A DNA stretch of 60,496 bases from a virus (IMGVR_UViG_3300033146_000395:1-60496), one strand, 5' to 3'; positions 10,852-59,271 are shown, counted from the stretch's first letter. Translations and numbers: made by a program. Notes: a model not told the origin generated them from the sequence alone.

Positions 10852-10919
10852 AAAAAATTAAATAAACGCTTGTTTATTTGAAATATTTATTCCTATCTTA
10901 GTGGGAAACAAATAAACCT

Positions 10920-11108
10920 GTGTTTGAAAACAAAGCAAATAATCATTCGATAGCGTTTGTAAACCTAGTTATGAACTCCATAAATGGGCTTACGGACAAT
11001 ATATATGAGGCCCTTATGGACAGGGAAACTGATGATGTTAACTCTAATATTGACGAACTCATAAATGTTTTGAAGGATCTACAGGTGTCATGTAAGGATG
11101 AGTTATAA
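10920..11108 (+). CDS. hypothetical helical protein
   Basis: 62-aa ORF preceded by TTG...TATCTTAG, a promoter-like sequence. Confidence 0.55.
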   Translation: MFENKANNHSIAFVNLVMNSINGLTDNIYEALMDRETDDVNSNIDELINVLKDLQVSCKDEL

Positions 11109-11814
11109 GGATTTTAGACCAAGGTTGAGTGGTAATAAAAAGATTGCCTACGACAACCTAATGAGGAAAGAAAGAAGAGTACTTGTTGTTGGAGATATAC
11201 ATGCTCCATTTGAACTAGAAGGATATCTAGAGTTTTGTCAAGAAACTTATGCCAAGTACAATTGTAATCAAGTAGTTTTTATAGGGGATATAATTGACAA
11301 TCACTATGCGTCATACCACGAAACAGATCCTAATGGAATGGGTGGTGGAGAAGAGTTGTCTTACGCAATAGATGATGTTAAGAGATGGGCAGATGCTTTT
11401 CCTGTAGCTGATGTGTGTATAGGAAACCACGACAGAATGATAATGAGAAAGGCGTTTACTTCAGCTATCCCAAAAGAATGGATCAAGGATTACAATGAAG
11501 TGCTAGGAACTAATTGGAAGTGGGCAGATAGATTTGTTTATGATGGCGTTCAGTACATACACGGAGAGGGTGGTACAGCCAGGACTAGAGCAAAGAATGA
11601 TATGATGTCTACTGTTCAGGGACATATACACACACAATCATACACCGAATGGATGGTTGGTAGAAACTTCAGGGTGTTTGGAATGCAAGTGGGTTGTGGG
11701 ATTGATGCTAACGCATACGCTGCAGCTTACGCTAAGCACTTTAAGAAACAAGCTATTGGCTGCGGAGTAGTTCTTGGTGGGCATACAGCTATAAACTGTT
11801 TAATGGAATTATGA
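11098..11814 (+). CDS. Calcineurin-like metallophosphoesterase
   Basis: GDIH, GDIID, GNHD, HG, GHIH motifs. Confidence 0.9.
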   Translation: MSYKDFRPRLSGNKKIAYDNLMRKERRVLVVGDIHAPFELEGYLEFCQETYAKYNCNQVVFIGDIIDNHYASYHETDPNGMGGGEELSYAIDDVKRWADAFPVADVCIGNHDRMIMRKAFTSAIPKEWIKDYNEVLGTNWKWADRFVYDGVQYIHGEGGTARTRAKNDMMSTVQGHIHTQSYTEWMVGRNFRVFGMQVGCGIDANAYAAAYAKHFKKQAIGCGVVLGGHTAINCLMEL

Positions 11815-20069: not shown

Positions 20070-23000
20070 TTAAGTACATGCTATGTTAGCTATAACTATA
20101 CCGTTTTCAACTTGAATCGCTCTATGAGGCGCTGGACCTATTCCACTAGCATACCACCCATCATCCATTGGGGTTACACCATTAGGATCTTTAAATACAG
20201 CTCTGTAGCCATGTCGGCCAGATGCGTTGTTATTTGGCGTGTCATAAAATAGAGGGAAGGAAGGTAGGTCTGGGCCATAACTAGGTCCTCCACTGCCTAT
20301 TTCATCCACAAAACCGTTTACACCACTAAATTTTGGTAAAGGCGTAAAGTAATATGTTTCTGTTGCTAAAGCACAAACAGACGATGTTTGCTTTACACTT
20401 GCCTGGAAAGAAGGAAGAGCTGCTGGACAGAAAGCTGCTGCCTTCCAAACAGTTGAATCACATGGGCCTAAAACCTCTAATTGAATATTTTGTATAAAAG
20501 AACTTGTCTTTGGAATAACTAGGGTGTTAAAAATCTGTTGCCCAAACTGAAAAAGCCTACCTCCTGGAGTAAAGAAAGTTGTTCCAGGGCCAGGAGCGTT
20601 AGATACATTGTAGGTGTACGACTTAGAAGTGCCGGTGTTGTTCCATGAGCTTCCAGTATATCCATCGAAATATCTATATGGTACTGTGTCTTGGTTTAGG
20701 CAGTAGCTTCTAACAGTACTTGAGCAGCTATTATTTGCTATTGAGCTTCCTGCCAGAACAAATCCTCCGCTAGGATCCGACCAAACACCTCCATTAACTG
20801 TGTATTGCTGCCTATTGTAAGTGATAGTTCTAGGGCCCCTTGTGTCTACTAGCGTATTGTACGTTTGCCCATTGTATATAGCTCTAACTCCATCTATATA
20901 CCCTCGAGGGTCAAAATGTATTATAACAGCCCCAGTGTCACTACCCACGTTTAAATTTACATTATAATACCCTTCGCCTCCACTAGGTATATTTAAGTCG
21001 TCACCGCTACAAGCTTGAGACGGCGGGCATGTTGGGCACGAAGTTAAAGCTCCTAGCACACCTTGAGCATCTAGCTCTCTATACTGTCCATTCACTCCTT
21101 TATACAAACCTGGTGCAGCAAGTGTTTGCGATGCGTCAGAATAAAGAGTGTTAGAAAGTGGAGTAGTATCAAAGTTAGTCCCTAGTGGTAAGTAATATGT
21201 GTCTGAGGACGGCGACCCGCAGCACAATACATATTCATCTGATGCATCAAAAGCTAACTCAACAGAATTAACACAGACAGGGCATGTTGTAACAACTCCG
21301 AGTGTTGAAGATGATTGCTCTCTATATGTTCCTGAAGTAGGTACTTGATAGAATCCATCAGCTGCCGGAGTTAGGTTGGTGTCTGAATACAAGTTAGTTG
21401 TAGCGTCAAAAGATGATCCATCAATATAGTAAGTTGCCGTAGGTTTTGTGTTACAACATAAGTCTGTGGCATCTACACTACTGTATTCTAAAGTAATCGC
21501 AGTAACACACGAAGGACACGCAATTGCTGACTGAAGCACCCCTCCAGAAGTTTGTTCTCTGTAAGTTGTTTGTAGGTTTTCTTTATAAAATCCAGCTGCA
21601 GCTTTTGTTGTAAGTGTGTCGTCCGTGTATATGTTAGTTGCATCAGCAAATGTAGTTCCATCTACTCTAGCCATAAACACATTGGAGGTCTGCTGAGGAT
21701 CGCAACAAACTTCTTGTGCGCTTACAGAACTGTAATCTAAATTAAGAGATACAGCGCAGGTTAAACATGTAGCTGCTGTTTGAAGTGCAGATGAAGATTG
21801 CTCTCTATATTGGATTTGTCCAACAGGCAAATAGAATCCGTCAGCAGAAGGCGTTGTTAAACTTGTGTTGTCATATAGAACTGTAGCAGAATAAAACCCT
21901 CCTTCAAGTGCGCTTACATATTTAGTATTTGGTGTGAGTGATAAGCAACAAACGTCTACCGAAGAGTCAGAATCATACACTACAGACACCCCTATATAAC
22001 AATTAGGAAGTGATTGCTGTGATCCTAAAACTCCTGATGATTGTTCTCTATAGAAAGTTCCCGCAGCCTCTTTATAGAATGCATCAGGCGCTGGGTTAGT
22101 TGCCCCTATGTCTGTAAATAATGCTGGAGCATTTGCGAATGTAGTTCCATTGGCAATGTAGAATGTTCCTGACTGTGGAGTTCCACAAGTTAAATCAATA
22201 GCCGTACTATCAAACTCTAATGTAATTGCATAATGGGTAGGCGGCGTTATACATGGACTAGTTACCGATTGAACGATACCATCTATAACTTGTATGTATG
22301 AATCTGGATTAGTTCCACCCGCGCTATCAATGGTGTAATATCCGTCAGGTAAAAGGTTTTCTCCGTTTTCATCAGTGAACACCCAGTTGGATTGTTCAGG
22401 CACAGTGTTGGTTCTAACCGATATTTGTCCAGTTCCAGGTTGGTCTGCGTTTCTAGCAAAGTAAAAAGTTTCTGTCAAAGGATTGCAGCTTCCGTCAGAC
22501 TGAACTGGAGTTGAACTAAAACTTGGTAAAGCCACAGGACAAAACGTTGCTATATCAAATACAGTTCCTGTGCTTATACCTATTGACTCTACTAGCACTG
22601 TAGAAGGGAATTGATTTGGTTTTGGCACAACTATAGTCCCCCATTCAAAATTAGTGTTTGCTGTTCTGGCGTCATCTCCTGCAGATAAGGTTGCTGTTTT
22701 AGTTGATCCTGATGGAATCCAAGCTTGTGTGCTTGGGTCATAGGAATAAAATGGCAGCTCAAAACTCGTGGTAGGTCCATTAGGGAATGGTGGGTTTGGC
22801 AAAGAATCTGTTGGATCTCCAACGATTGTGAATGAACTATCTGTAGATCCTTGCGCTGGGACGAGGTCACCTATAAATGCCATTTTATTATAATACGCCC
22901 CATCATACAAAACCCTAACACCATCAGGTATTCCTCTTGGATTAAAGTAAACAATCATAGCGCCTGTATCACCAGGGTTGCTGCCGCCTTCAAAATTCAT

Positions 23001-26000
23001 TTCAGAATAACTTTCTCCTTGTATACTTGATGTAGGAGCTGGCGTGCTTGAACATGGTACAGTCGGCAAGAAACAATCTCCAACTTCTATGACAATTCCT
23101 CGTTTTACTTTTATGTAAGTAGTGTCTGATAATATGTAAAACTGCGCAGTTAGCGTGTCGTTTAATTTTGTTGTAGCTACAAAGTCTTCAAACACATAGT
23201 TACCTACAATTGGCTTATTATTAGTGTCCTCTACAAATGAACTCCCGTTCCACGTTGCATTTCTAGCAAAGAAGAATGTATTTTCGTTTGTGTCTGGAGT
23301 ACAGTTGTTGTTTAATTGAGGAGCTGAACAATTAAAAGATGGTAGTGGTGCTGGGCAGTTCACTATCCAGTTAAACTCTCCTTCATCCACACCAAAACAA
23401 TCTACCGACACATTGTATGATCCTGTCCAAGGTAAAACCATCGTATATATCGTTGGGTCTCCACCTTTAAGATCTATGTTTGTTGGATCAACAGTAACTG
23501 TTGATAATGGAAACCCTGGATTTATATAGTTCCCTGCAGAATTTAACTTAAACGTAGGAAGGTTTGAGGTGGTTTCAGGTGTTATAAAAGGTGTTCCTAT
23601 ATATGTCGGCTCCCCTGAATTGCTATTGATGCCTACAGGGTCTCCAGAATTGTTATTATATGTAAATTGATTTTGCAGTGTTGTATTTGAGAATCCAGCT
23701 CGAACTCCAAGAGGAGTGTTTGCAGGTCTAAAATAAATCACAACAGGCTGTTTTAAAGTAGTTAGTGAAATATCTCCAATATAAGTTCCGCCCACCTGGG
23801 TTGCTGATGCTAAAGTCCCGCAGTCAACAACGCAAGTTATGCATGGCTCTTCGTCTTGTAAAATCCCATTAGATTGATATCTAGATATTGTTCCGTCAGA
23901 ATAAAATTGATCAGGAGCAAGTTGAGTTAAAGATGGATTAGTGTAAACACTAGATGCTTGAGATAAAAATGGCGCATCTATATAAAATGTTGCTTTTGAA
24001 GTACACTCGCAGCAGACGTCATTTGCGCTAACTGTAGAAGTACATAACTCTATCGCATTAACATTTCTGTAATCCCAAACTAAATATAGATACGCATGAT
24101 CAGATGGATTGTTGTATGTAAACGAAGCCTGATACTTACCTGTAGATGGGTTTGATGTTGGAGTAGCCACAGTTAAGTTTGGATCTACCAATAGAGATGT
24201 TATATCTGCAGATGTGTTTTGATATAGCGTGTTTGAAACTAAATATCTAAAGTTGTGATAGTTTTCGTCAAAAACAAAATCATCGTTAGATAATTTATTT
24301 GATATGATCGTAATCGTAGCTCCGTCTGCAGGTATAAGTCCAACCGACTCTTTTCCTGTTCCGCTCTGATATTGTGAGACTACAGGCACTGGTAGCCCAC
24401 CGAACTCAATTTGTGTGCTGGATAAGGGACTCGCAGGATTAGGCGCTAACTCCCATTGATATTGATTGTGTATGTATTTATCTTCATCTTCCGGAGAAGT
24501 TATTGCCACTTGAATAACTGTTAATTCAGCTGCATCAACGCAGTTAGGCGTTATAGTGTAGTCTCCTCTTTGAGAAGGAGTGACTCTAAATTCAGCGGTA
24601 GTGGGATAAGCAAAATCTTTACTAAAAATTACAGACGATGTTCCGGCGGGTAAACTATATGTTGTGGTACTGCCATTGTAAATAATATCTAAAGATAAAT
24701 TTACTGTAGATGTATAATCTATTGTAGCGTCCCCAATTACTTCACCAAAATTTACTATAAATGAATATGGCCTTATGTCAGAGTCTTTTATAATTATAGG
24801 GGTCCCACAACCTGATTCTGGAATAGGTATAGGAATAGGTTGATCGTTAGACCCTAAAACATATTCATTCATGTATGGATCGTAACCACCTAGCTTTTGA
24901 GTTTCAAATCCCTGTTGGAATTTATCTCTAAAGTAAGATCTCATTCCAGCTTGAGAAATAACCTCCAGCTTTTCGTTTGAATAATCAGAACCTGTTAGTT
25001 TTATAACAGCGCCTCTACTTGTGTCGGTAAAATATTTATCATACCCAAACGAAGCAAAGCTTTCTGGGTTTTGACTAATACCATATTCTTCTAATCTAGC
25101 TATCTGAGTTCCTAAAACTTCAGGCACAGATGTGATAGCTCCGCCAGCTGCTGCATCAGACAATAAGTTTTTACCGGCCAAAACATAAGAAATTCTATCT
25201 TCCTGAAGAACAAGAAGGTCTGTTTCTCTAGGCGCTAGCTTCTGAATAGATCCGTAGTTTTTCTCTAAGTCTTTAAAGTTTGCAAGTCCTAAGTTGAATT
25301 CGTTTAATCTATTTACGTTTGTCTCGTTTCTAAATACACCACTGTATGTTATGCCCGCAAACCTGTGGGCTCTCTTGTAGTCTTGCTCTGATACAGAGGT
25401 AACTCTCTCTCCTAAATAAAACTTAGCTCCTGTTTGGTTATCCAAAGCTTTATAACTTTCAACGCCATTTCCAAAAGAAAAGCAGTCAAAAAAACTTAGA
25501 GTCATTATTGCTGGTTGAGTAGCGGTCTGATTTTGATCTCCGTCTTTATTTCCAGACATGTGGAATCCCCCTGATATGTCGTAGTTTTCAGAACCTTCAT
25601 AATAAAGGTCCACATCAGCGTCCAATGGTTTTGTTTCAAAAACACACAAACTTTGAGCTAGAGTCACAATGATTTCTATCTTTATTTTTGATGACTCCTG
25701 ATATGGGCAATGTTTTATGCCACACATTCCAACTAAATACATTCTCCCTGGAGTCATTGATGGAATAAAGCCTTGGGTTGTCGGTTGAACAAATTGAAGC
25801 TGATGATTCCTTCCTCTAGTTTTTGATTCTGATATTTCATATCCCCCTGCTGTAGTTAAATCGGTAGCTAGATTCGGGTAAAAAGTTATGCTTTGATTTT
25901 GAGGATCGTTATCATCATTGCCACCTTTTACTCCGTTTTCAAAATTTATGTTTTCACCTATAACAAATTGATAAAGACTATCATAGTCGGCATTTGCGGT

Positions 26001-28454
26001 AAATATTTTTGCGTCATCACCACCTAATCCGTAATCATAATAAACACTTCCACATCTTTTTTGAAATCCAGAGTCTCTGTAAAACTTAATCCTAAACTCT
26101 ACTGTCGAACCAGCTGGTATAGCATATGCATTATAGTATGGATCAGCCGGCTGCAGATCTTGACTTTCATCAAAAACTGGTTGCCACGTAAGGGCATAAT
26201 CTCCCTTGCTAAAAGAAGAGGGGTTTTTTATAACAACAACCTCATCTAGCGGTCTGCTTGCTATAAAATCATCTGGTCTAACTTCCATATATAAACCAGA
26301 GGGCTCAGGAACTTCGTCCCCTGCAGAGGTTTCATTGTTTAAAAAATCTTTAGATTTAGCCTCTAGCGACAAAACTTGTGTTTCAACAACTCTTGATATT
26401 GTCCCCGCCAAATCTCTCTTCACAATCAATTCATCTCCGCTTTTTACTTTTGTTTGGTTCTGACCTAGCAGCTGAAAGAAAACACTACTTGAGTTAGGAT
26501 CTTTAAAAGATAAATTGCTATATATAGTCTCATAGTCTGACTGAACTCTTTTTACTACAAACTTATATTTAGTTGCCCAACTTGGAGGCAAAGAATTTAG
26601 AGTTACTTTTAATTTGTTTATTGCAGTTGAAGATGAGGGAGAAGTATAAACAGAGTTATTAGAAGAAACAAGAGCAGTTGAGCTTCTGTTGTATTCGTCC
26701 ATATAAACTATTCCAACTTCATAATCTCTGTTACTGTGCAAACTTTTTTTAGATGCTGATGAAGAAAAAAATGGGCTTACTGTAAAAACAGAAAAATATT
26801 CAAACAAATTGTAAACAGTTCCTGGAGTTGTGGTATCGTCTTTAAATCTTATAGCCGGAAATTGTAAGCTAAAAATGTTTGATCCAGGATTTGCTGTTAC
26901 CACAACACCTTCAAAAGCCTTATTAACGCCAAATTCATCTTTAACCCAAGTAAAAGTATTATCAACTCTAGGGCTATCAACCGCACACACAAATCTTTCC
27001 GTCAAACTAAACCCTTGGCTAGAAGTTCCGCACGAGGAAATTGGTTGGACGTTTGGACTCCCAAACCTTGTGGAAGCTCCTATCGCAGTTTGAAAAGCTG
27101 CAGATGAAACTAAATCAAATGCATTTGCATAATCTCTTTGTAAAGAAAATGAAAAGTTTTCATCTATAGGCGCTGTTACACTTGGACTTCCAGATGTTTC
27201 TCCTGCAAAAGTGTTGTGCTGAAACTCAAATCCTATTTGAAGTAAAGACCCCGCTTTTAAATCTAATCCGCTAAAGTCAAAGGTGACTTTACTTTGAGGT
27301 ATTGATATATTGTTCTGTCCTGTTGTAAAGTTGTATACACTGCTAGAGGATGTTTCTTCTAAGTCAGAAGCTCCAGGGTTTGTTGTAATAATTTCTGTGT
27401 CAAAATCTATGTTTATGGGAGCTCCAGATTCATTAGATATATCATATCCTTCGACGTAATTACCAAACATTAGTCGGTTGCCCATCAAAACTAAAGATTT
27501 AGCTGTCAATGGAACATTGTCGTAAAGCCTTAATAACTCCGATTCTGTAAGCGTAGTATATATTTTTCCGTTATTAAAGGTAAGTGACTGTGTAGAGTTG
27601 CTTGGATATCCCAAACCTTCTTTATCTACCTTTTCAATAACGTTTATGACATTGGATTCAGGAATTTTAAAACACACATCTACACCAACAACATCTTGAG
27701 AACCTGTGTTAAAAGAAACGTTTACACTATTGTAGATGTTTTTCATTCCCTCATTGTTCATGTCTGAAAGATTGAACCTGAATTGTGAAGGCTCAAAGGC
27801 AACATCTGTAAATTGGGAAAGGGCAGAATATTCGCCGTCAACATATCTATATCTATAGGCAAAAGAAACGAACCTAGTCTCTAAATAATTTTCTTCACCC
27901 GGTGAATTTCTTAGTGATACAGAAGGCGCTTCTGATGGAGGCTTAACTATTAAGTTAATCTCTTCATCTGTAATCTTATCCACCCCATTCTCAGGAAAAT
28001 CATAATCTCTAGATACATTTATTTTTCTTGGCGGATTTAAGTTGTCTGTAAAGTATAACAGATCTTCGATCTTATCTACGCCAGTGATTAAGTGTTTGTC
28101 ACTAAAGTTTAATACAGTATAACTTTCTATATGTTTTGTTAGGTTATTATTTCTAACGTCGTATGATAATATTAAGTCGCCTATATCAGACGTTACAAAC
28201 CAATATATTGTGTCGTTCTCAGAATCAGCATAAGCCCCGATACAGGTTGGGTTCTGTCCACTTAAGCTTTGGCCATCAAAGTTAATATCAGTAAGTCTGG
28301 TGTTACCTTTTGAGTTTTCTACAGCTCCAATCTCAGATCCCTCTGTAGATCCGAGCCTAACATTCATTGCGTCAATGTACTCTCCAGGACGAATCAATCG
28401 TTCATCCACAGACTTATTCATTACGCCTCTAACAAAATTCTGAGTTGTCTTCAA
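20070..28454 (-). CDS. Tail nozzle/stabilisation protein with ~1600-aa Cys-rich repeat extension
   Basis: 2794 aa, TTG start; MNKSVDERL, FTDNLNPPRKIN, FAYRYRY.DGEYS, GNRLMFGNY, NRLNEFN, YGISQNPESF, YFTD..RG, GGYDPY; then repeated domains. Confidence 0.75.
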   Translation of the reverse strand: MKTTQNFVRGVMNKSVDERLIRPGEYIDAMNVRLGSTEGSEIGAVENSKGNTRLTDINFDGQSLSGQNPTCIGAYADSENDTIYWFVTSDIGDLILSYDVRNNNLTKHIESYTVLNFSDKHLITGVDKIEDLLYFTDNLNPPRKINVSRDYDFPENGVDKITDEEINLIVKPPSEAPSVSLRNSPGEENYLETRFVSFAYRYRYVDGEYSALSQFTDVAFEPSQFRFNLSDMNNEGMKNIYNSVNVSFNTGSQDVVGVDVCFKIPESNVINVIEKVDKEGLGYPSNSTQSLTFNNGKIYTTLTESELLRLYDNVPLTAKSLVLMGNRLMFGNYVEGYDISNESGAPINIDFDTEIITTNPGASDLEETSSSSVYNFTTGQNNISIPQSKVTFDFSGLDLKAGSLLQIGFEFQHNTFAGETSGSPSVTAPIDENFSFSLQRDYANAFDLVSSAAFQTAIGASTRFGSPNVQPISSCGTSSQGFSLTERFVCAVDSPRVDNTFTWVKDEFGVNKAFEGVVVTANPGSNIFSLQFPAIRFKDDTTTPGTVYNLFEYFSVFTVSPFFSSSASKKSLHSNRDYEVGIVYMDEYNRSSTALVSSNNSVYTSPSSSTAINKLKVTLNSLPPSWATKYKFVVKRVQSDYETIYSNLSFKDPNSSSVFFQLLGQNQTKVKSGDELIVKRDLAGTISRVVETQVLSLEAKSKDFLNNETSAGDEVPEPSGLYMEVRPDDFIASRPLDEVVVIKNPSSFSKGDYALTWQPVFDESQDLQPADPYYNAYAIPAGSTVEFRIKFYRDSGFQKRCGSVYYDYGLGGDDAKIFTANADYDSLYQFVIGENINFENGVKGGNDDNDPQNQSITFYPNLATDLTTAGGYEISESKTRGRNHQLQFVQPTTQGFIPSMTPGRMYLVGMCGIKHCPYQESSKIKIEIIVTLAQSLCVFETKPLDADVDLYYEGSENYDISGGFHMSGNKDGDQNQTATQPAIMTLSFFDCFSFGNGVESYKALDNQTGAKFYLGERVTSVSEQDYKRAHRFAGITYSGVFRNETNVNRLNEFNLGLANFKDLEKNYGSIQKLAPRETDLLVLQEDRISYVLAGKNLLSDAAAGGAITSVPEVLGTQIARLEEYGISQNPESFASFGYDKYFTDTSRGAVIKLTGSDYSNEKLEVISQAGMRSYFRDKFQQGFETQKLGGYDPYMNEYVLGSNDQPIPIPIPESGCGTPIIIKDSDIRPYSFIVNFGEVIGDATIDYTSTVNLSLDIIYNGSTTTYSLPAGTSSVIFSKDFAYPTTAEFRVTPSQRGDYTITPNCVDAAELTVIQVAITSPEDEDKYIHNQYQWELAPNPASPLSSTQIEFGGLPVPVVSQYQSGTGKESVGLIPADGATITIISNKLSNDDFVFDENYHNFRYLVSNTLYQNTSADITSLLVDPNLTVATPTSNPSTGKYQASFTYNNPSDHAYLYLVWDYRNVNAIELCTSTVSANDVCCECTSKATFYIDAPFLSQASSVYTNPSLTQLAPDQFYSDGTISRYQSNGILQDEEPCITCVVDCGTLASATQVGGTYIGDISLTTLKQPVVIYFRPANTPLGVRAGFSNTTLQNQFTYNNNSGDPVGINSNSGEPTYIGTPFITPETTSNLPTFKLNSAGNYINPGFPLSTVTVDPTNIDLKGGDPTIYTMVLPWTGSYNVSVDCFGVDEGEFNWIVNCPAPLPSFNCSAPQLNNNCTPDTNENTFFFARNATWNGSSFVEDTNNKPIVGNYVFEDFVATTKLNDTLTAQFYILSDTTYIKVKRGIVIEVGDCFLPTVPCSSTPAPTSSIQGESYSEMNFEGGSNPGDTGAMIVYFNPRGIPDGVRVLYDGAYYNKMAFIGDLVPAQGSTDSSFTIVGDPTDSLPNPPFPNGPTTSFELPFYSYDPSTQAWIPSGSTKTATLSAGDDARTANTNFEWGTIVVPKPNQFPSTVLVESIGISTGTVFDIATFCPVALPSFSSTPVQSDGSCNPLTETFYFARNADQPGTGQISVRTNTVPEQSNWVFTDENGENLLPDGYYTIDSAGGTNPDSYIQVIDGIVQSVTSPCITPPTHYAITLEFDSTAIDLTCGTPQSGTFYIANGTTFANAPALFTDIGATNPAPDAFYKEAAGTFYREQSSGVLGSQQSLPNCYIGVSVVYDSDSSVDVCCLSLTPNTKYVSALEGGFYSATVLYDNTSLTTPSADGFYLPVGQIQYREQSSSALQTAATCLTCAVSLNLDYSSVSAQEVCCDPQQTSNVFMARVDGTTFADATNIYTDDTLTTKAAAGFYKENLQTTYREQTSGGVLQSAIACPSCVTAITLEYSSVDATDLCCNTKPTATYYIDGSSFDATTNLYSDTNLTPAADGFYQVPTSGTYREQSSSTLGVVTTCPVCVNSVELAFDASDEYVLCCGSPSSDTYYLPLGTNFDTTPLSNTLYSDASQTLAAPGLYKGVNGQYRELDAQGVLGALTSCPTCPPSQACSGDDLNIPSGGEGYYNVNLNVGSDTGAVIIHFDPRGYIDGVRAIYNGQTYNTLVDTRGPRTITYNRQQYTVNGGVWSDPSGGFVLAGSSIANNSCSSTVRSYCLNQDTVPYRYFDGYTGSSWNNTGTSKSYTYNVSNAPGPGTTFFTPGGRLFQFGQQIFNTLVIPKTSSFIQNIQLEVLGPCDSTVWKAAAFCPAALPSFQASVKQTSSVCALATETYYFTPLPKFSGVNGFVDEIGSGGPSYGPDLPSFPLFYDTPNNNASGRHGYRAVFKDPNGVTPMDDGWYASGIGPAPHRAIQVENGIVIANIACT

Positions 28455-52743: not shown

Positions 52744-52966
52744 CAGTGTATGGTTTGTCGTCTATAAGGACTGTATGTCCTGCGTGCTTGTCAAAATAAA
52801 TATTATCGTTTTCTTTTATTGAGTCAACAAGAGTGCCTGGTTTAATAACGACGCCCTTTTGATATCTTATGGACTTCTCGTCCTCCGCAGACAGAAGGAG
52901 TCCAGACTCAGTCTTAAACTCCTCCTTTATCTTTTCAACTATAATATATTTATTAATTGGTTTCAT
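52709..52966 (-). CDS. groES: Co-chaperonin GroES (Cpn10)
   Basis: MKPINKYIIV, KTESGLLL mobile loop, GVVIKPG, IKENDNIYF. Confidence 0.9.
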   Translation of the reverse strand: MKPINKYIIVEKIKEEFKTESGLLLSAEDEKSIRYQKGVVIKPGTLVDSIKENDNIYFDKHAGHTVLIDDKPYTVILEKDVVVVL

Positions 52967-54539
52967 ATGTTCTGGCCATTGTTACAATTGCATTTGTAGA
53001 AAGAATAGTTGTAGCTACAGAGAGTGCGTTCTTCAGTGCGTTCTTAGTAACCTTTGCTGGATCTATGATTCCCATCTTATACAGATCACCAACTTCGCCC
53101 GTCTTCGCATTCAAACCTTGACTAAAGAACTCGGTTAACTGCCCGCTCACAGAGTCTGGATCTGTTCCGGCGTTGACAAGGATTTGTCTAAACGGCGCAC
53201 GTAGTGCGTCACGCATAATTTTTTCAGCGTCACTTGCGCTATCATTGTCCCAATCAGAGGTCATCTTATATAGAACGCTACCTCCACCTGGTATGATTCC
53301 TTCTTCAAGTGCAGAGCGAACTGCACACACCGCGTCGTCAACGCGGTCAAATTTTTCTTTCTGCTCCACATCAGAGTTACCCCCAACATAAATCACGCCT
53401 ACCGAACCGCTCAGTCCTGCGATACGCTCACTGATAAAATCACGATCACCCTTCTTAGTGGTATTCTGCAGTGCTTCACGCAGCTCAACGATACGCTGGT
53501 CTATCACAGCTTGGTTATCACCCTGCTCTTTGACAAGAACCGTTTGGTCTCTTCCCACCACAATACGATCCACATGCCCTAGATCAGACATACTAATCAA
53601 CTCAAGGTTATCTCCTGTAGATTCTGAGAAGTACTTTGCTCCAACCGACACAGCGATATCCTGCATAAGCTCATGCTGACGATACCCGAAACTTGGCGGA
53701 GGAACGTTACATATCTTCAGATTGTTCTTCACGACATTAGCAGCAAGGGTGTTTATCACATTACCCGTACATGTACCTATGATCAGTAACTTCTTGTTGG
53801 CTTGAATGATCGGCTTGAGTATATTCTCAATCGCAAGTATGCTGTTTATTTCTTGGTCTGTAACCAGAACCAGAACGTCATCTAAGATACACTCGTCCTT
53901 TCTCTGGTTGTTTACAAAAAGATTCGATGAGTATCCTCTATCTATCTTCAAACCCTTTGTAACCTCAGCATACGTCTCCGTTGTTTGAGACTTCTCTACT
54001 GTCACCACACCGTTCTTCCCAACACTGTGATAAGCGTCCGATATGACTTTTCCCAGTTCTTTATCGTTATTAGCCGAGATTGTGGCTACATCGAGCATGG
54101 TCTTTTTAGTAAGCCGTTTCGCCTTAGAGTCTATACTTGATACCACTTGGTCTGTGATATTAGCCATTTCTCGTAGCGTCTCCGCCTTGTTGTTTTTAAT
54201 GTACTTTGTGCCGGCCTTGACCATTGCTTCAGTGAGCACGATGGCAGTAGTAGTACCGTCCCCAGCTTGAGTGGCTGTCTTGTCTGCAGCCTCCTTCATC
54301 ATCTTCACTGCTAAGTTCTCAACCGGATGAATAAGATCAATACTCTTGGCTACCGTCACCCCGTCCTTTGTAACCGTAATGCCGTGCGTGTGATTAGGTG
54401 ACTCAATAATAACTGTGTTGCCTCGAGGACCGAGCGTGCTCTTTACAGCTGATGCTATTTTCTCTATACCATTAACAAGATTCTCCCTACCCTTGTCGTC
54501 GAAGAAAAGTTCCTTCGGACTATAACCTGATTCGTTCAT
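52953..54539 (-). CDS. groEL: Chaperonin GroEL (Cpn60)
   Basis: TLGPRG, VTKDGVTVAK, AGDGTTTA, ISANND, EEGIIPGGG, GIIDPAKVT. Confidence 0.97.
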   Translation of the reverse strand: MNESGYSPKELFFDDKGRENLVNGIEKIASAVKSTLGPRGNTVIIESPNHTHGITVTKDGVTVAKSIDLIHPVENLAVKMMKEAADKTATQAGDGTTTAIVLTEAMVKAGTKYIKNNKAETLREMANITDQVVSSIDSKAKRLTKKTMLDVATISANNDKELGKVISDAYHSVGKNGVVTVEKSQTTETYAEVTKGLKIDRGYSSNLFVNNQRKDECILDDVLVLVTDQEINSILAIENILKPIIQANKKLLIIGTCTGNVINTLAANVVKNNLKICNVPPPSFGYRQHELMQDIAVSVGAKYFSESTGDNLELISMSDLGHVDRIVVGRDQTVLVKEQGDNQAVIDQRIVELREALQNTTKKGDRDFISERIAGLSGSVGVIYVGGNSDVEQKEKFDRVDDAVCAVRSALEEGIIPGGGSVLYKMTSDWDNDSASDAEKIMRDALRAPFRQILVNAGTDPDSVSGQLTEFFSQGLNAKTGEVGDLYKMGIIDPAKVTKNALKNALSVATTILSTNAIVTMARTYETN

Positions 54540-54559
54540 AAATTAAATTTTATTTGAAA

Positions 54560-54590
54560 CAAATATACTAAAATAATGCCATTACACAAG
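54560..54590 (-). promoter_or_regulatory. Promoter for groEL (-33 TTG, -7 TATATTTG)
   Basis: CAAATATA 54560-54567 and CAA 54587-54589 (19-nt spacer). Confidence 0.6.
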
Positions 54591-54807
54591 AATGACAGAA
54601 TGACGTTTTTTTGGTTTCAAAACACACTAATATATTTTTCTCTCTACTACTAAAAATTTTTTTCTATAAATAGGGTTTATTTTCGTCATTTCGTCATTTT
54701 AGTATAATAGTAAATAGTTAAGTAGTTGATAATAAGAGAGTTAAGTAGTTAAAGTTAAAGTGATGATTCACATTTAAAATCGTCACTCCAGTGACGAAAA
54801 TCGTCAC
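54591..54807. repeat. Cluster of short direct and inverted repeats (TCGTCA motif; AGTTAAGTAGTT x2)
   Basis: TCGTCA at 54683, 54691, 54780, 54801; reverse TGACGA at 54792 and TGACG at 54601; AGTTAAGTAGTT at 54716 and 54739. Confidence 0.8.
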
Positions 54808-54833
54808 AAAAAAGGGCTACACGTAGTAGCCCT
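54808..54833 (-). terminator. Intrinsic terminator
   Basis: On - strand AGGGCTAC-loop-GTAGCCCT followed by T-run. Confidence 0.7.
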
Positions 54834-54860
54834 AGGGTTGAGAGGAAAGGAAAGACTCTA

Positions 54861-55043
54861 CTATGAGAGTAAATCGTTACGCATTTTAGAACGCATTTCT
54901 GCTAGTTCAATTCCGTCTGCAATATCTTTTACGGCTTTAGAAGCCTTCATCTGACGTCGATACATACTTGCCTCCTCGATGCCTGAGATTCCATCAGGTC
55001 TTAGGTTGATTAGTCTTCCGTTTTTTACAATTAGTCCGTCCAT
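54861..55043 (-). CDS. hypothetical protein
   Basis: 60 aa, MDGLIVKNGRLIN. Confidence 0.6.
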   Translation of the reverse strand: MDGLIVKNGRLINLRPDGISGIEEASMYRRQMKASKAVKDIADGIELAEMRSKMRNDLLS

Positions 55044-55045
55044 GT

Positions 55046-55189
55046 TTATTTATATAATAGGTTAATTTCTAGTAATCCTAAATGGATCGAGAACTCACTA
55101 TAGTCGTACTTATCGTCCTTATGGTAGTATGACCATCCGATAGCAAAACCTGTGTGTATTCTGTTTCGGAGTTCAATGATCCAATCCAT
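55046..55189 (-). CDS. small hypothetical protein (47 aa, not in ORF track)
   Basis: MDWIIELRNRIHTGFAIGWSYY...; ends 2 nt before the next ATG. Confidence 0.55.
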   Translation of the reverse strand: MDWIIELRNRIHTGFAIGWSYYHKDDKYDYSEFSIHLGLLEINLLYK

Positions 55190-55192
55190 ATA

Positions 55193-55200
55193 CAAAGATA
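55193..55200 (-). promoter_or_regulatory. Late-type -7 element TATCTTTG(TA), first promoter of the - arm
   Basis: CAAAGATA 3 nt upstream of ATG 55189. Confidence 0.6.
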
Positions 55201-55332
55201 AGGTTTTTTCAGATACCCGTATTGATTGGGTAATATATATATTCTACGTTCGGTGTGTCAATTCGGAAATCGTTTTTTTTTCGTGGGGGGGTGTGTTTTT
55301 TCGTTTGGTTTGTTCTGATTTTTTGGCGTTTT

Positions 55333-55402
55333 TACGCGTGTGTGCGTGTGCGTATGCGTGTATGTGTGTGCGTGTGTGTACGAGCGTGCGTGTATGCGTG
55401 CG
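55333..55402. repeat. Alternating purine-pyrimidine (TG/CG/TA) tract
   Basis: 55333-55382 is 50 nt of perfect alternation, then 19 more nt after one break. Confidence 0.9.
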
Positions 55403-55518
55403 AAGTTTCAAACCCTTTTGCCCTTCCCTCGTTTACATCATCACCCCACCGAACGAAAAGAAAAGAAACAAAAAACCCCCTAATTTCCTTCGATAAACTA
55501 AAAAAAAGTGAAAAAAAA

Positions 55519-55550
55519 TTTGCGTAGTATTTTTGCATTATGTACTTTTG
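55519..55550 (+). promoter_or_regulatory. Early promoter (-33 TTTG, -7 TACTTTTG)
   Basis: TTTG 55519-55522, 20-nt spacer, TACTTTTG 55543-55550, A-tract upstream. Confidence 0.75.
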
Positions 55551-55571
55551 GCGATATAAGTTCTTTTTTTT

Positions 55572-55979
55572 ATGAATACAAAAGCGAAAAACAGCGCAGT
55601 TGTGAACAATAGTAGCAACGCGCCAAAATGGTTTGTTAATGCTCAAAACGTCATTCAAACACTAAACGCAAAAGATGAGCGTACAGCGTTCGATAGCGTT
55701 CGACTAGCAAATCAATTATTCAAAATTGAAAATCGTAGCTTAAGCAAAGTTTACAACGAACTTAAAAATTCGTCTGGGGATATTGCAAAAGCAGTTGCCG
55801 AAGTTTTAGGCAAATCAAGTTTCCCAACCTTTAAAGCGTTCAAAAACGAAGCGAAGCAAGGGCAACAATTTTTTTCAATTTACGCAGGGTTGATGATGTT
55901 AAAAAAATTCAACAAATCAGCCAAACAAGTGGCAAGGGCAAAGCGACAAAGCAAAGCCCAAGCCCAAAAAATAGCATAG
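55572..55979 (+). CDS. First early gene, basic hypothetical protein
   Basis: 135 aa K/A/Q-rich, directly downstream of the promoter. Confidence 0.7.
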   Translation: MNTKAKNSAVVNNSSNAPKWFVNAQNVIQTLNAKDERTAFDSVRLANQLFKIENRSLSKVYNELKNSSGDIAKAVAEVLGKSSFPTFKAFKNEAKQGQQFFSIYAGLMMLKKFNKSAKQVARAKRQSKAQAQKIA

Positions 55980-55985
55980 TTTGCG

Positions 55986-56672
55986 AGGGTCAAAAATGAC
56001 CCTTTGAGGGGTGCAAATCCCCTCTTATTTGCTAATCTTATCGAGTTTGACAAATGTAGGAATTTTCCTACATAGTCATAAGTAGTAGCATCAACGAGGC
56101 GCAACGCCATACAGACGCAAAGTCTATTCGTTGAAGTGAAGCCAAAATAAGAGGATATACTGATAACACAGAGGAACGACCTCTCGATGACCGACAAAGG
56201 TACATGGGAAAGGTGTATGCAGTGCCGTACAACGATACGCGCCGTAGAACTACGCTACGAACAAACACTTACACTATCCACATGCGACTGATGTTAGTGT
56301 GACTATCATGATGAAAGCGATTGACAAAAATACTCATGCATGGGGTTGCCTTGTAGTGACAGAACACAGGTATATCAAAGCCCAATATCGCTATGCATAC
56401 CTACGAGATTTCGGTACTTCGGTACAAGCGTAGGGTTTACCCTTTCAGTATGGGGCTGTTTATATATTTTCAGCCAAAAAAATACCATACGACAAGCAAG
56501 TGCAGACACAGAGGGATAAACACGTACAGATATATTGCAGTAGAACGGAACAGAGAGAAATGCAATAGACAAATATATATATAAATCTATGGCTAAGGTT
56601 GAGCTGTCTGAGAATGATTGAAAGACAAAAACCTACACTACCAACGGGGCGAGGCTCGATACCTTTCCCCGT
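55986..56672 (+). ncRNA. Candidate large structured non-coding RNA (~690 nt)
   Basis: No credible ORF; more than 12 complementary helices incl. nested junctions, a C(UUCG)G tetraloop and two T-loop-like hairpins (see findings). Confidence 0.55.
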
Positions 56673-56688
56673 ATCTAATTTTTAAGTT

Positions 56689-56901
56689 ATGCAACAGAGA
56701 AAACGAGTTCGCACTAAAAGTGTGGGCATATTCATGCATAATCAATACACCAGCAGACGAAAGAAATTTGGTGAATTGGTTAAATTAAGACTGATCGAGA
56801 AAGGTCTTGACATTACGACTGCGACATTCAAAGCAGAATGCCAACTACTAAACAATGAGTTAAGGCAAAGCAGACTTGAACGACAACTATCAATGATATG
56901 A
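56689..56901 (+). CDS. hypothetical early protein
   Basis: 70-aa basic ORF coupled to the next gene. Confidence 0.6.
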   Translation: MQQRKRVRTKSVGIFMHNQYTSRRKKFGELVKLRLIEKGLDITTATFKAECQLLNNELRQSRLERQLSMI

Positions 56902-57131
56902 AAGTAGAGTTGAAATATAAGGACGGCAAAGCCATTGGTTGGTCAATGAACGCAGAAAACCATGAGGAAAGACTGATTGTGAATACGATTAGAGACATGG
57001 AATTTTGGGGTACAGACGACAGGTGTATAGTGTATGACGGCAGAGAAGGTGGATCAATGGACTATGCAGGTAAATTAAAATGGGTACAAAAACGATACCA
57101 AAGAAAAAACATGGGTAGAAATGACTTTTAA
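56898..57131 (+). CDS. hypothetical early protein
   Basis: 77 aa, ATGA overlap. Confidence 0.65.
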   Translation: MKVELKYKDGKAIGWSMNAENHEERLIVNTIRDMEFWGTDDRCIVYDGREGGSMDYAGKLKWVQKRYQRKNMGRNDF

Positions 57132-57267
57132 ATACAAACGACTGGCAACTGGAGTTGTCATAGTCCACACTCCAACCCTATCGGGGAGTGAGAGAGTAGA
57201 GGTCTATACTAAAAATGATTTCATGTATAGGGCTCATAGTAGATTAGAGAAGCTATATAAACCATAA
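57121..57267 (+). CDS. small early protein (48 aa, not in ORF track)
   Basis: MTFKYKRLATGVVIVHTPTLSGSERVEVYT... Confidence 0.55.
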   Translation: MTFKYKRLATGVVIVHTPTLSGSERVEVYTKNDFMYRAHSRLEKLYKP

Positions 57268-57271
57268 GTAT

Positions 57272-57493
57272 ATGAGCGAAGAAAAGCACGTAAGCGTACC
57301 ACTGCAACTACTAAAAGACCTTAGAGTTCAGTTAAGGTCACATGGAGAATTGTTGAAATTATTTAAAGCATTAGATAACAATGACAACTATTTTCATGAA
57401 TGTAATGTTTGGTCAGATTATCATGACAAATATATACATGAAGATGAAGCGTATTTTGATGAAGAATACGATGATTGGAAACTTATAGAATAA
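57272..57493 (+). CDS. hypothetical early protein with acidic aromatic C-terminal motif
   Basis: VWSDYHDKYIHEDEAYFDEEYDDW. Confidence 0.65.
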   Translation: MSEEKHVSVPLQLLKDLRVQLRSHGELLKLFKALDNNDNYFHECNVWSDYHDKYIHEDEAYFDEEYDDWKLIE

Positions 57494-57500
57494 ATAAATT

Positions 57501-57809
57501 ATGACTAATTATGACAACTGGCTGGTTGAACAAGAACACAGCTATCGGGGCTGGAACAAGAAAGCCCCAAGAACATGCGATATCACAGGCGAAGGCATGT
57601 GGGAAGGATTTGTATTGCATGACACGAAGTACATTAAGTACGAACACGATCTATTGGAAGAACTACGGAAATTAGATTGGAGTGAAGAAGAACTCAAGTA
57701 CGATATGAAAGTCAGTAGAATGACCGACCAAGAGATAGTCGAGATGTCGTATGAGGAGGGTGTCCACTATTGGACTGAATGGGAAATAGAAGATGAATTT
57801 CAAGATTAA
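57501..57809 (+). CDS. hypothetical early protein
   Basis: RTCDITGEGMWEGF...YWTEWE. Confidence 0.7.
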   Translation: MTNYDNWLVEQEHSYRGWNKKAPRTCDITGEGMWEGFVLHDTKYIKYEHDLLEELRKLDWSEEELKYDMKVSRMTDQEIVEMSYEEGVHYWTEWEIEDEFQD

Positions 57810-58575: not shown

Positions 58576-58670
58576 TAAGTAATTGCTGTGGTGCACCACC
58601 ATCATACTTCAGTGATGAATTGTGTGGTGCATGTTTAGAATGGGCAGAATTTGAAAACGAGGACACATGA
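58572..58670 (+). CDS. Tiny Cys-rich zinc-binding protein (32 aa, not in ORF track)
   Basis: MISNCCGAPP...LCGACLEWAEF; ATGA overlaps on both sides. Confidence 0.7.
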   Translation: MISNCCGAPPSYFSDELCGACLEWAEFENEDT

Positions 58671-59083
58671 GAAAGTTTTTTATTGAAGGGCAAGACGTTA
58701 TGGACTTGTTCTATAATCAAGAAGATGTTTGCCGAGTATCTGTTTGCGAACATGAGCCATACGCAACCGACAAAGAAAATCTGAAACACAGCGAGTGGTT
58801 TCGAGTTGTTGAGTTTGGATACACAGCGATTGCCGTACAAGACGGATGGGGTTATTCAGCAAAACCCATTAAATATGAAGATGTAACAATGGTAAAGGTC
58901 AATAGCAGTGAGGGTAAATACGTGCTTGTTAGAAATCGTGAGAACCCACCCTTTGTTTGGCTTCGTTTGTTAGAACACTACGCATGGTATGTAGATGAAG
59001 AAGAAAGTGCAGGAAACATACCACTTAAATATAGAGAGTGGTTAAACGAGTATGGGCAAATCATAATAGAAAAATACTTATGA
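58667..59083 (+). CDS. hypothetical early protein
   Basis: 138 aa, coupled to neighbours. Confidence 0.65.
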   Translation: MRKFFIEGQDVMDLFYNQEDVCRVSVCEHEPYATDKENLKHSEWFRVVEFGYTAIAVQDGWGYSAKPIKYEDVTMVKVNSSEGKYVLVRNRENPPFVWLRLLEHYAWYVDEEESAGNIPLKYREWLNEYGQIIIEKYL

Positions 59084-59271
59084 GTAGATGTAGATGTGGA
59101 AACGAGATACCCCAAGGCAGAATAGCTTTGGGGTTTTTTAATTGTGTCAGTTGTTCATCAACTGAAATGTATAGCTATGTGCCGATTATATACCATAAGA
59201 CAGGCAACACAATACAGATTGTAGACCAAGCTACAAGCAGAGCTGTACATAAATCTTGGAGGAGAAAGTGA
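59080..59271 (+). CDS. DksA/TraR-type C4 zinc-finger protein
   Basis: CRCGNEIPQGRIALGFFNCVSCS; start at 59080. Confidence 0.65.
   Translation: MSRCRCGNEIPQGRIALGFFNCVSCSSTEMYSYVPIIYHKTGNTIQIVDQATSRAVHKSWRRK

What the first reader, a model, noticed from the sequence alone, without database searches (positions are those of the whole stretch)
55986..56672. Candidate ~690-nt highly structured ncRNA in the earliest-transcribed region
Seen: the longest gene-free stretch of a tightly packed genome is full of helices: AGGGTCA/TGACCCT (55986-56003); ATGTAGGA/TCCTACAT (56054-56073); TCAACGA/TCGTTGA (56091-56134) enclosing two GCAA-containing hairpins (3-way junction); long-range GATATAC/GTATATC (56154/56376); CCTACG/CGTAGG enclosing GTAC-TTCG-GTAC, a C(UUCG)G tetraloop (56400-56434); GTTTACCCT/AGGGATAAAC enclosing GTATGG/CCATAC and GGCTG/CAGCC (56435-56521); TATTGCA/TGCAATA; AGGTT/AACCT enclosing TGTCT/AGACA. 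The UUCG and GCAA loops read on the + strand, the transcribed strand. Established: phages carry large ornate RNAs (GOLLD, ROOL) of poorly known function. I cannot assign this one to a known class. Inference: a possibly new large RNA, perhaps partnered with the basic 135-aa protein encoded just upstream, acting as an anti-defence decoy, scaffold or antiterminator.
Basis: partly seen in the sequence, partly recalled or inferred. Interest (0 to 1): 0.85.

Follow-up and report, generated by a model that had tools for sequence, protein, structure and literature searches.

The report
New structured RNA in marine phages
The 0.7-kb gene-free stretch at the head of this marine flavobacterial phage's early genes encodes a conserved, intricately folded RNA of no catalogued class, always next to the same small unknown protein; what it does is still open.

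Summary
The finding holds in substance. Window 55980-56688 is non-coding: its variable sites show no codon periodicity (21/15/22, against 17/8/42 in the neighbouring gene). It folds better than shuffles (z -4.75). Its 5' third is a conserved RNA domain (56075-56191): a closing helix, a three-way junction and a hairpin. In 10 sequences from 4 lineages, 96% of cells pair and 18 of 25 pairs change on both sides (0 of 500 shuffles reach this). G.U pairs outnumber A.C 16 to 2, which points to the + strand.

Relatives lie in at least 7 lineages of marine phage contigs. In each the element follows a homologue of the 135-aa protein and precedes small early ORFs. Both ends carry hairpins followed by a CUAA-U-rich motif. 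In three relatives these hairpins are canonical tRNA T-arm minihelices.

The 3' half (about 56270-56640) is specific to this lineage and rests only on folding energy and one compensatory change. No Rfam, tRNA or tmRNA match was found. Contigs from four RNA libraries cover parts of the element.

Function is inferred. My first choice is an RNA cut out of the early transcript that works with the 135-aa protein. A cis-acting antitermination leader is a close rival.

The parts
55520..55550 (+). Promoter-like site of the Bacteroidota type (TTG, 20-nt spacer, TAnnTTTG) ahead of the 135-aa gene. It is the only such site on the + strand within 54500-57500.
   Evidence: Regex scan. The consensus itself is recalled from the literature, not taken from a call.
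55572..55979 (+). Gene for the 135-aa basic, all-alpha protein of unknown family. It is the constant upstream neighbour of the RNA.
   Evidence: ORF. No Pfam or PHROG match. AlphaFold2 pLDDT 83.6. No PDB fold match at E<=0.001 among 352 listed. 109 cluster representatives at E<=0.001 among 1.84 billion proteins. Codon periodicity 17/8/42.
55986..56003 (+). First hairpin after the stop codon.
   Evidence: Fold. In L037-L040 the stem changes mostly keep pairing (G-U and A-U for G-C).
56006..56024 (+). 5' cap: a G+C-rich 6-bp hairpin with a 7-nt T-loop-like loop, followed by a U-rich tail that holds CUAAU. It resembles an intrinsic terminator in this lineage only.
   Evidence: Terminator scan, fold. 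The same hairpin follows the protein gene in lineages A, B, C and D. The loop is a canonical T-loop in L048 and L340.
56046..56073 (+). Conserved TTTGACAAAT-type motif followed by hairpin P1 (56054-56073).
   Evidence: The motif and a hairpin with a different stem occur in lineages A, B, D and L041. It scores as a sigma-70-like promoter, 10 of 12, but the spacing to the downstream motif ranges from 18 to 26 nt between lineages (spacings counted by eye).
56075..56191 (+). Conserved core domain. It comprises closing helix P0 (56075-79 with 56187-91), unpaired UAAGUAGUA (56079-87), three-way junction P2 (56091-97 with 56128-34), P2a (56098-56108), P2b (56113-56125), unpaired GAAGCCAAA (56138-46) and hairpin P3 (56170-74 with 56180-84).
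   Evidence: Covariance models R1 and R2 and pair counts. Fold z -4.31.
56192..56270 (+). Rest of the 5' domain shared between lineages. It holds the ACAAAGGUA and CAGUG blocks and an A-rich block that ends near 56266.
   Evidence: Motifs shared by lineages A, B, D, L041 and G were seen by eye. No formal pair test was made.
56271..56640 (+). Lineage-specific 3' domain with nested hairpins at 56400-56434, 56435-56521 and 56533-56567 and others. No counterpart was found in other lineages.
   Evidence: Local z -3.6 to -4.6 at 56350-56575. One compensatory change, 56450/56488. No blastn similarity to other lineages. RNA-library contigs lie at 56177-56441, 56263-56413, 56373-56535 and 56485-56635.
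56644..56683 (+). 3' cap: a 6-bp outer stem (56644-49 with 56667-72) around a 4-bp stem with the 7-nt loop CUCGAUA (56651-65). CUAAUUUUU follows at 56675-83, 6 nt before the next ORF's ATG at 56689.
   Evidence: Fold z -3.46. A terminal hairpin plus CUAA, with a different stem each time, is present in every lineage.
56689..56901 (+). First small early ORF (70 aa) after the element.
   Evidence: ORF. The RNA-library contig 56543-57038 runs from the element into it.

Best explanation
Window 55980-56688 encodes, on the + strand, a member of an uncatalogued family of phage RNAs.

The RNA has four parts:
- A 5' cap hairpin.
- A conserved core of about 120-290 nt, built from a closing helix, a three-way junction with CAA/GNAAN loops, a further hairpin and strictly conserved unpaired runs.
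- A long structured 3' domain that differs between lineages.
- A 3' cap hairpin followed by CUAA and a U-run.

I infer that it is transcribed from the promoter ahead of the 135-aa gene, as part of the early transcript. My preferred mechanism is that the two caps mark where host tRNA-processing or 3'-end enzymes cut. In some relatives these caps are true acceptor-stem plus T-arm minihelices. Cutting would release a stable RNA that works with the co-inherited 135-aa protein during host take-over.

Shown: non-coding status, the structure of the core, the strand, conservation, synteny, and presence in RNA libraries.
Inferred: the promoter, the processing, the protein partnership and any role.
For: Non-coding:
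- The 58 variable sites in 55980-56339 split 21/15/22 by frame (p 0.48). The 135-aa gene gives 17/8/42 (p 9e-7) and GroEL gives p 4e-14.
- Stop-to-stop frames of 20 aa or more show no significant peptide similarity to other lineages (best E 0.014 in a tiny database).

Structure:
- R2 alignment of 10 sequences (lineages A x5, E x2, G x1, B x2): 96.1% of 230 cells pair. 18 of 25 pairs change on both sides. 0 of 500 shuffles reach the observed pairing or covariation score. Slid controls pair at 38-48%.
- The junction alone gives 97.9% pairing and 12 of 15 pairs changed on both sides.
- L340 was found through the protein, not through RNA motifs, and was not used to build the model. It still matches R1 at E 7e-6.
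- Lineage C: 24 of 121 predicted pairs are compensatory among 4 sequences.

Strand: 16 G.U cells against 2 A.C cells. Pairing is 96.1% read as + strand RNA and 90.0% read as - strand RNA.

Synteny:
- All 16 loci fetched through the protein, and L340/L345, have a gap of 470-870 nt before the first ORF family that recurs downstream. Some gaps hold short non-recurring ORFs.
- L089 and L135 (C-terminal end only), found through DNA motifs alone, also carry the protein upstream.

Caps:
- L340 has an acceptor-like stem plus a T-arm with loops UUCGAGU and UUCGAUU at both ends, each followed by CUAAC.
- L135 has one at the 3' end and L048 has one at the 5' end.
- The T-arm part of Rfam's tmRNA model hits those two hairpins, below threshold (E 0.009 and 0.028).

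Transcription:
- Contigs from 4 metatranscriptome runs of 4 studies lie on 56177-56635. One spans 56543-57038.
- No Bacteroidota-type promoter lies inside the element.

Divergence: promoter, gene and RNA core together form one divergent patch (55245-56320, 61-90% of columns identical) between flanks that are mostly 95-100% identical in four close relatives.
Against: - No transcript ends were measured. Contigs cannot show starts, ends or strand, and DNA carry-over in RNA libraries is not excluded.
- One RNA contig bridges the 3' cap into the next ORF, so cutting or termination there is at most partial.
- The window's own caps are only loosely T-arm-like (loops UGCAAAU and CUCGAUA). Loose matches of that kind occur 17 and 12 times on the two strands of the genome.
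- ARAGORN calls no tRNA or tmRNA in the window or in 19 relatives.
- The 3' domain is not conserved between lineages, which fits a spacer or leader as well as a functional RNA body.
- In L194 the cap hairpin plus CUAAUUUUU follows an ORF rather than the non-coding stretch. The cap may therefore be an independent signal.
- Nothing shows that the protein binds RNA. No fold match was found, and the language-model likeness to the RegA translation repressor family scores only 0.88, below the tool's 0.9 line.
Confidence: 0.42

Rival explanations
1. A cis-acting leader that sets read-through into the delayed-early genes.

The 135-aa protein would be made first. Transcription would pause or stop at the cap hairpins. 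The conserved core would act like a nut or put site, with or without the protein, and make RNA polymerase resistant to terminators. The RNA would then never need to leave the mRNA.
For: - The element sits on the coding strand between the first gene and the rest of a long early/replication operon.
- The only consensus promoter lies upstream of the first gene.
- The 5' cap scores as an intrinsic terminator in this lineage. A strong terminator lies further down the module at 59109-59134.
- An RNA contig runs from the element into the next ORFs.
- P2b is a 4-bp stem with a GNAAN pentaloop. This recalls boxB hairpins (from memory).
- Promoter, gene and core diverge as one patch, as immunity and nut regions do in lambdoid phages (the comparison is from memory).
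Against: - Known nut and put sites are tens of nucleotides long (recalled), not 500-870 nt.
- In most lineages the caps lack a U-run directly after the stem. The 3' cap's U-run starts 7 nt after the stem, so they are poor intrinsic terminators.
- Canonical T-arm minihelices, as in L340, are not needed for termination.
- The protein is predicted to be a folded helical bundle, unlike the disordered arginine-rich N proteins (recalled).
- No boxA-like element was identified.
Confidence: 0.3
2. An origin-region transcript. The structured RNA would prime or activate DNA replication, in the manner of ColE1 RNA II or R-loop origins.
For: - The cumulative GC skew reaches its minimum at 54-56 kb, where the two gene modules diverge, a few hundred bases upstream.
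- Replication genes follow on the same strand: an annealing protein, an exonuclease, a primase-helicase and a helicase.
Against: - The skew switch and the odd alternating GT/GC tract lie at 54540-55571, before the 135-aa gene and not in the element.
- The skew also tracks the switch in coding strand.
- No iterons or direct repeats were noticed on reading the element (no repeat search was run).
- Conserved unpaired motifs and a variable 3' domain are not expected of a primer.
Confidence: 0.07
3. No dedicated RNA function. The stretch would be a run of terminators, promoters and spacer DNA, or DNA-level hairpins, with incidental structure. Alternatively it would encode small proteins.
For: - 56200-56350 and 56500-56650 fold no better than shuffles.
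- The 3' domain is not conserved between lineages.
- The minus strand also folds well (z -3.75).
- Frames of 59 and 63 aa are open in all 5 close relatives.
Against: - Covariation in five helices, with conserved unpaired runs between them.
- The G.U asymmetry favours an RNA read from the + strand.
- No codon periodicity, and no ORF shared between lineages.
Confidence: 0.06

Closest known systems
Large 'ornate' bacterial and phage RNAs (GOLLD, ROOL)
   Same: Several hundred nucleotides long, many helices, phage-borne, function unknown.
   Different: - No Rfam match at gathering score in the window or at E<=10 in the region.
- Only the 5' ~290 nt and the terminal hairpin are conserved here.
- The element lies inside an operon and has a constant protein neighbour.
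- Multimer formation was not tested.
That GOLLD and ROOL form RNA-only complexes comes from a search listing and abstract only (10.1101/2024.12.08.627333).
Lambda nut/N and HK022 put antitermination RNAs (recalled)
   Same: An RNA element on the early transcript just after the first gene, ahead of terminators and replication genes. Small stem-loops with purine-rich loops. In lambda, a small basic phage protein is the partner.
   Different: - Ten times larger.
- No boxA.
- The protein is predicted to be folded and helical.
- tRNA-like caps are present.
- No functional test was made.
P1 c4 and P4 CI RNAs, and tRNA punctuation (recalled)
   Same: A regulatory RNA carried in the leader of the operon it belongs to and released by RNase P. 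tRNA-like elements serve as processing marks.
   Different: - Those RNAs are under 100 nt and act by antisense pairing to sites nearby.
- No complement of the conserved unpaired runs was found in this genome: the full 9-nt complement of UAAGUAGUA is absent. The complement of GAAGCCAAA occurs twice, at unrelated places.
tRNA-like structures: the tmRNA tRNA-like domain, bacterial Y RNAs (YrlA), viral 3' tRNA-like ends
   Same: Acceptor-like stem stacked on a T-arm with a UUCRANY loop. This is seen at the ends of the element in L340, L135 and L048.
   Different: - ARAGORN finds nothing.
- Rfam gives only T-arm-sized partial tmRNA hits below threshold in two relatives, and a 17-bit Tymo_tRNA-like hit (gathering score 40) in the window.
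- There is no anticodon or D arm.
- The window's own caps are degenerate.
The YrlA description comes from a listing and abstract only (PMC4201824).
phi29 pRNA (recalled)
   Same: A phage RNA built around a three-way junction and encoded beside early genes of a podovirus.
   Different: - No Rfam match.
- Different size and sequence.
- There is no evidence of a role in packaging.

Membership tests
Any Rfam 15 family (including GOLLD, ROOL, pRNA, RNase P, tmRNA, 6S, riboswitches) | Covariance-model score at or above the family's gathering score. | tested here: not met
   0 matches in the whole window. In the region at E<=10 there were 4 matches, all far below gathering score. Among 8 relatives' loci, only a DUF805b motif elsewhere on the locus passed.
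tRNA / tmRNA | Cloverleaf or tRNA-like domain with a tag reading frame, as recognised by ARAGORN. | tested here: not met
   0 genes in the window and in 19 relatives' loci.
tRNA-like minihelix (acceptor stem plus T-arm) | A 5-bp G+C-rich stem with a 7-nt loop UUCRANY, directly followed by the 3' strand of a flanking stem. | tested here: inconclusive
   Met in L340 at both ends, in L135 at the 3' end and in L048 at the 5' end. In the window the loops are UGCAAAU and CUCGAUA. Loose matches of that kind are common by chance, 17 and 12 per strand.
Intrinsic (rho-independent) terminator | G+C-rich hairpin followed within 0-2 nt by a U-run. | tested here: inconclusive
   56006-56024 passes the scan. 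The 3' cap does not pass, because its U-run begins 7 nt after the stem. The 5' cap lacks a U-run in lineages B, C and D.
Lambda-type nut site | boxA consensus plus a boxB hairpin (5-bp stem, GNRA-like pentaloop), bound by an arginine-rich N protein. | not testable with these tools
   P2b has a 4-bp stem and a GNAAN pentaloop. No boxA model or N-family profile was at hand. The protein has no Pfam or PHROG match.
Protein-coding small ORFs | Third-position bias of substitutions, and an ORF kept across lineages. | tested here: not met
   21/15/22, p 0.48, against controls at p 9e-7 and 4e-14. No ORF is shared by lineages B, C and the others.
Structured RNA (general) | Base pairs kept through compensatory changes beyond shuffled and slid controls, with a strand-specific G.U excess. 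| tested here: met
   for 56075-56191. One compensatory pair supports the 3' domain.

The most novel reading that the evidence does not exclude
A new class of phage ribonucleoprotein. A large RNA with tRNA-like caps is punched out of the early transcript by the host's own tRNA-processing enzymes. Together with the co-evolving 135-aa protein it captures or decoys a host machine, such as a tRNA-directed defence nuclease, an RNase or RNA polymerase. The swappable 3' domain would set which target is hit.
Probability: 0.15. Interest if true: 0.88.

Novelty: new variant of a known kind. Interest (0 to 1): 0.68.

Why it matters
Few large structured RNAs are known from phages, and none, as far as my searches reach, from phages of marine Flavobacteriia, a major group of ocean bacteria. 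(Rfam. Full-text searches.)

This family has several useful properties:
- A core with unusually clear covariation.
- Conserved unpaired runs that look like binding sites.
- A fixed protein partner gene with no known fold.
- Ends that in some members are bona fide tRNA-arm mimics.

It therefore offers a concrete new RNA-protein pair to test for a role in early host take-over. It is also a possible example of tRNA-type punctuation in a phage operon. Its sequence is present in marine metagenomes and metatranscriptomes from 11 studies, so it is not a one-off.

Tried and rejected
- blastn of 55400-57000 against 50,697 phage records: no match.
- tblastn of the 135-aa protein against the same records: no match.
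- The closest deposited relative, MW202828.1 (67% identity in the capsid-type protein), has no long gap at the same place and no R1 hit.
- R1 found nothing convincing in 37 other loci, including 30 that carry only the downstream 155-aa protein family. It found nothing in lineage C, L194 or L244. L041 was missed by both models, although by eye it has the motifs.
- Lineage D rows were aligned inconsistently by R1. I left them out of the final counts.
- The genome-contig scan gave 76 stretches. None showed blastn or tblastn support, so there is no host or prophage lead.
Most of its 117 stretches were chance matches or an unrelated conserved gene.
- Long-range helices:
  - GATATAC/GTATATC is unsupported.
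  - GGGAAAGGU (56205) with ACCUUUCCC (56661) is predicted, but it never covaries and is broken in 2 of 5 sequences.
- A pairing of the run after the 5' cap with UAAGUAGU holds only in lineage B (seen by eye).
- The upstream proteins of L194 and L244 show no detectable homology to the 135-aa family (hhalign probabilities 0.3% and 1.2%).
- Ten longer family members have no Pfam domain.
- Parts of the stretch without RNA-contig cover say nothing either way.
- mafft-qinsi is not installed.
- The six putative ncRNAs of Cellulophaga phage phi38:1 are mentioned in a passage of PMC5335546. Their positions are in supplements that I could not open, so I cannot say whether any of them is related.

Full report
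**Setting.**
- The window is a whole 60,496-bp virus record rated complete.
- Its capsid-type protein matches 85 phage records, all podoviruses of Flavobacterium, Cellulophaga or Maribacter or uncultured relatives. The best match is 67% identical.
- Genes on the + strand run from 55572 to the window end and on through 1-11814. They encode small ORFs, an annealing protein, an exonuclease, a primase-helicase and a helicase.
- Genes on the - strand (12064-54539) encode terminase, portal, structural proteins and a GroEL homologue.
- The cumulative GC skew turns at 54-56 kb.
- The finding therefore lies just inside the early/replication module, after its first gene.

- All the listed helices are in the sequence.
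- The 711-nt stretch folds at -193.7 kcal/mol against -161.7 +/- 6.7 for dinucleotide shuffles (z -4.75, 0 of 20 as good). The reverse strand gives z -3.75.
- In 150-nt windows the excess sits at 55900-56200 and 56350-56575. It is absent at 56200-56350 and 56500-56650.
- Rfam gives nothing at gathering score for the window. In the region there are four chance-level hits. ARAGORN finds no tRNA or tmRNA.

**Relatives.**
- The phage collection holds no DNA or protein relative of the region.
- The 135-aa protein has relatives in metagenomes: 8 at E<=0.001 in the word-indexed search, and 109 cluster representatives in the exhaustive search.
- Loci were fetched through the protein and through RNA motifs. 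They fall into these lineages:
  - A: the window and L037-L040.
  - B: L033, L035 and copies.
  - C: L011, L045, L046, L048.
  - D: L043, L044, L178.
  - L041, on its own.
  - E: L089, L135.
  - G: L340, L345.
  - Partial relatives: L244 and L194.
- In every locus with the protein, a stretch of 470-870 nt without a recurring ORF follows on the same strand, and small ORFs follow that.

**Non-coding.**
- Among four close genomes, the 135-aa gene and GroEL show strong third-position bias (17/8/42 and 86/21/24).
- The 58 variable sites of 55980-56339 are flat (21/15/22, p 0.48).
- No frame is kept across lineages, and no peptide similarity was found.

**Structure of the core.**
- Close relatives already show compensatory changes in the junction and in P3, and pairing-preserving changes in the first hairpin.
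- Model R1 covers the junction and was built from the five lineage-A sequences only.
  - It finds lineages E, B and D.
  - It also finds L340, which had been fetched through the protein, at E 7e-6.
  - On the ten best matches, 97.9% of cells pair and 12 of 15 pairs change on both sides.
- Model R2 adds a closing helix and P3. It gives 96.1% pairing over 230 cells and 18 of 25 pairs changed on both sides. No shuffle of 500 reaches the observed pairing or covariation score, and slid controls pair at 38-48%.
- These alignments are fitted to the model and lean towards it. The sequences are also related, so the shuffle counts are not probabilities. The size of the gap to both controls, and the independent L340 hit, carry the argument.
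- G.U cells outnumber A.C cells 16 to 2, so the folded strand is the + strand.
- Between the helices, the runs UAAGUAGUA and GAAGCCAAA and an AUAUUGA-type run are nearly invariant.
- Lineage C lacks this junction but has its own well-supported fold, with 24 of 121 pairs compensatory among 4 sequences.

**What is and is not shared between lineages.**
- Shared blocks:
  - The hairpin right after the stop codon.
  - A TTTGACA/TCGGCA-AAU motif with hairpin P1.
  - The core.
  - A further ~80 nt with shared blocks.
  - At the far end, a hairpin followed by CUAA and a U-run.
- Between these lie 200-450 nt that differ by lineage. B resembles L041. D, L135, L194 and L340 share blocks. A and C each stand alone.
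- The window's 3' half is invariant among its close relatives. So is most of the surrounding genome.
- The stretch 55245-56320 (promoter, gene and RNA core) is instead the divergent patch.
- The 3' half is therefore supported only by folding energy and by one compensatory change, 56450/56488.

**The caps.**
- In L340 both ends of the gene-free stretch are acceptor-like stems stacked on T-arms with canonical loops. Each is followed by CUAAC.
- L135 has such a minihelix at the 3' end and L048 has one at the 5' end. Rfam's tmRNA model touches just these hairpins, below threshold.
- Lineages B, C and D, and L089, L194 and L244, carry instead a long hairpin with a conserved GUAGAGAAUAU-type loop. 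CUAA follows it again.
- The window has a 6-bp hairpin with the 7-nt loop UGCAAAU at 56006-56024.
- At 56644-56672 it has a nested hairpin with loop CUCGAUA, then CUAAUUUUU.
- Such loose T-arm matches are common by chance. For the window the tRNA likeness therefore rests on homology of position, not on its own sequence.

**Transcription.**
- A match to the Bacteroidota promoter consensus (recalled) lies at 55520-55550, ahead of the 135-aa gene. A second lies on the other strand, ahead of GroEL. None lies inside the element.
- Of the 24 runs listed, six are on record as RNA. I laid the four RNA runs with the largest word share.
  - Their contigs lie at 56177-56441, 56263-56413, 56485-56635 and 56373-56535.
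  - One lies at 56543-57038 and crosses into the next ORFs.
  - This shows the sequence is present in RNA libraries. It does not show ends, strand or abundance.

**The protein.**
- It has no family assignment.
- The predicted model is confident and all-helical.
- There is no PDB fold match and only a homologue among viral models.
- The language-model search returns viral hypothetical proteins. A RegA translation-repressor cluster scores 0.88, which is a lead only.

**Reading.**
- The core is a genuine RNA domain of a new family.
- I rank a processed, stable RNA that works with the neighbouring protein first (0.42). The grounds are the tRNA-type caps, the conserved unpaired runs and the constant gene pairing.
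- A cis-acting read-through leader of the nut/put kind is close behind (0.30). It explains the position, the lack of an internal promoter, the terminator-like 5' cap and the bridging contig.
- An origin transcript (0.07) and 'no dedicated function or small ORFs' (0.06) are less likely.
- About 0.15 remains for something not considered here.

Noticed in passing
window 55326-55402: A ~75-nt tract of alternating purine-pyrimidine GT/GC repeats lies in the divergent intergenic region, between the GroEL-side and early-side promoters. It could adopt a left-handed or otherwise unusual DNA form, or mark the origin. L194 has a shorter CA-rich run at the comparable place.
   Followed up: no
window 52953-54539 (-): The phage encodes a full-length GroEL-type chaperonin (PHROG 5725, E 5e-138). 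The relative MW202828.1 also carries an annotated GroES next to it.
   Followed up: partly
window 20070-28454 (-): A 2794-aa protein whose first ~335 residues match the crAss-like phage muzzle protein family (PF25731, E 1.4e-13).
   Followed up: no
L011 5575-5607; L135 10332-10363 (-): A DUF805b RNA motif (RF02914) lies just after the homologue of the window's 155-aa protein. It scores 42 bits in L011, above the gathering score of 35.6, and 28 bits in L135. The window itself has no such match.
   Followed up: no
window 57220-57520: Among four otherwise near-identical relatives this stretch is replaced (0-41% of columns identical). It covers the 73-aa ORF at 57272-57493. One RNA-library contig joins 57262 to 57501, with 9 other letters in between.
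   Followed up: no
window 54780-54833 (-): Two strong terminator-like hairpins lie back to back on the - strand (local fold z -7.4 and -8.4), in the region upstream of GroEL that holds only tiny ORFs. An RNA-library contig lies at 55034-55187.
   Followed up: no
window 59109-59134 (+): The strongest intrinsic-terminator-like site of the early module (10-bp stem, then six U). It follows the ORF at 58667-59083.
   Followed up: no
L194 (reverse strand), about 10060-11200 in locus coordinates: The order differs in this relative. A ~600-nt non-coding stretch with a P1-like hairpin pair comes first, then a 143-aa basic ORF with no detectable homology to the 135-aa family. Only after that come the conserved cap hairpin and CUAAUUUUU.
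   Followed up: partly
window 56689-56901 and counterparts in L011 and L135: The first small ORF after the element seems to be a conserved family with a basic N-terminus (K/R-R-x-R-x-K-S/V pattern), seen by eye only. In L135 it appears to start with GTG.
   Followed up: no
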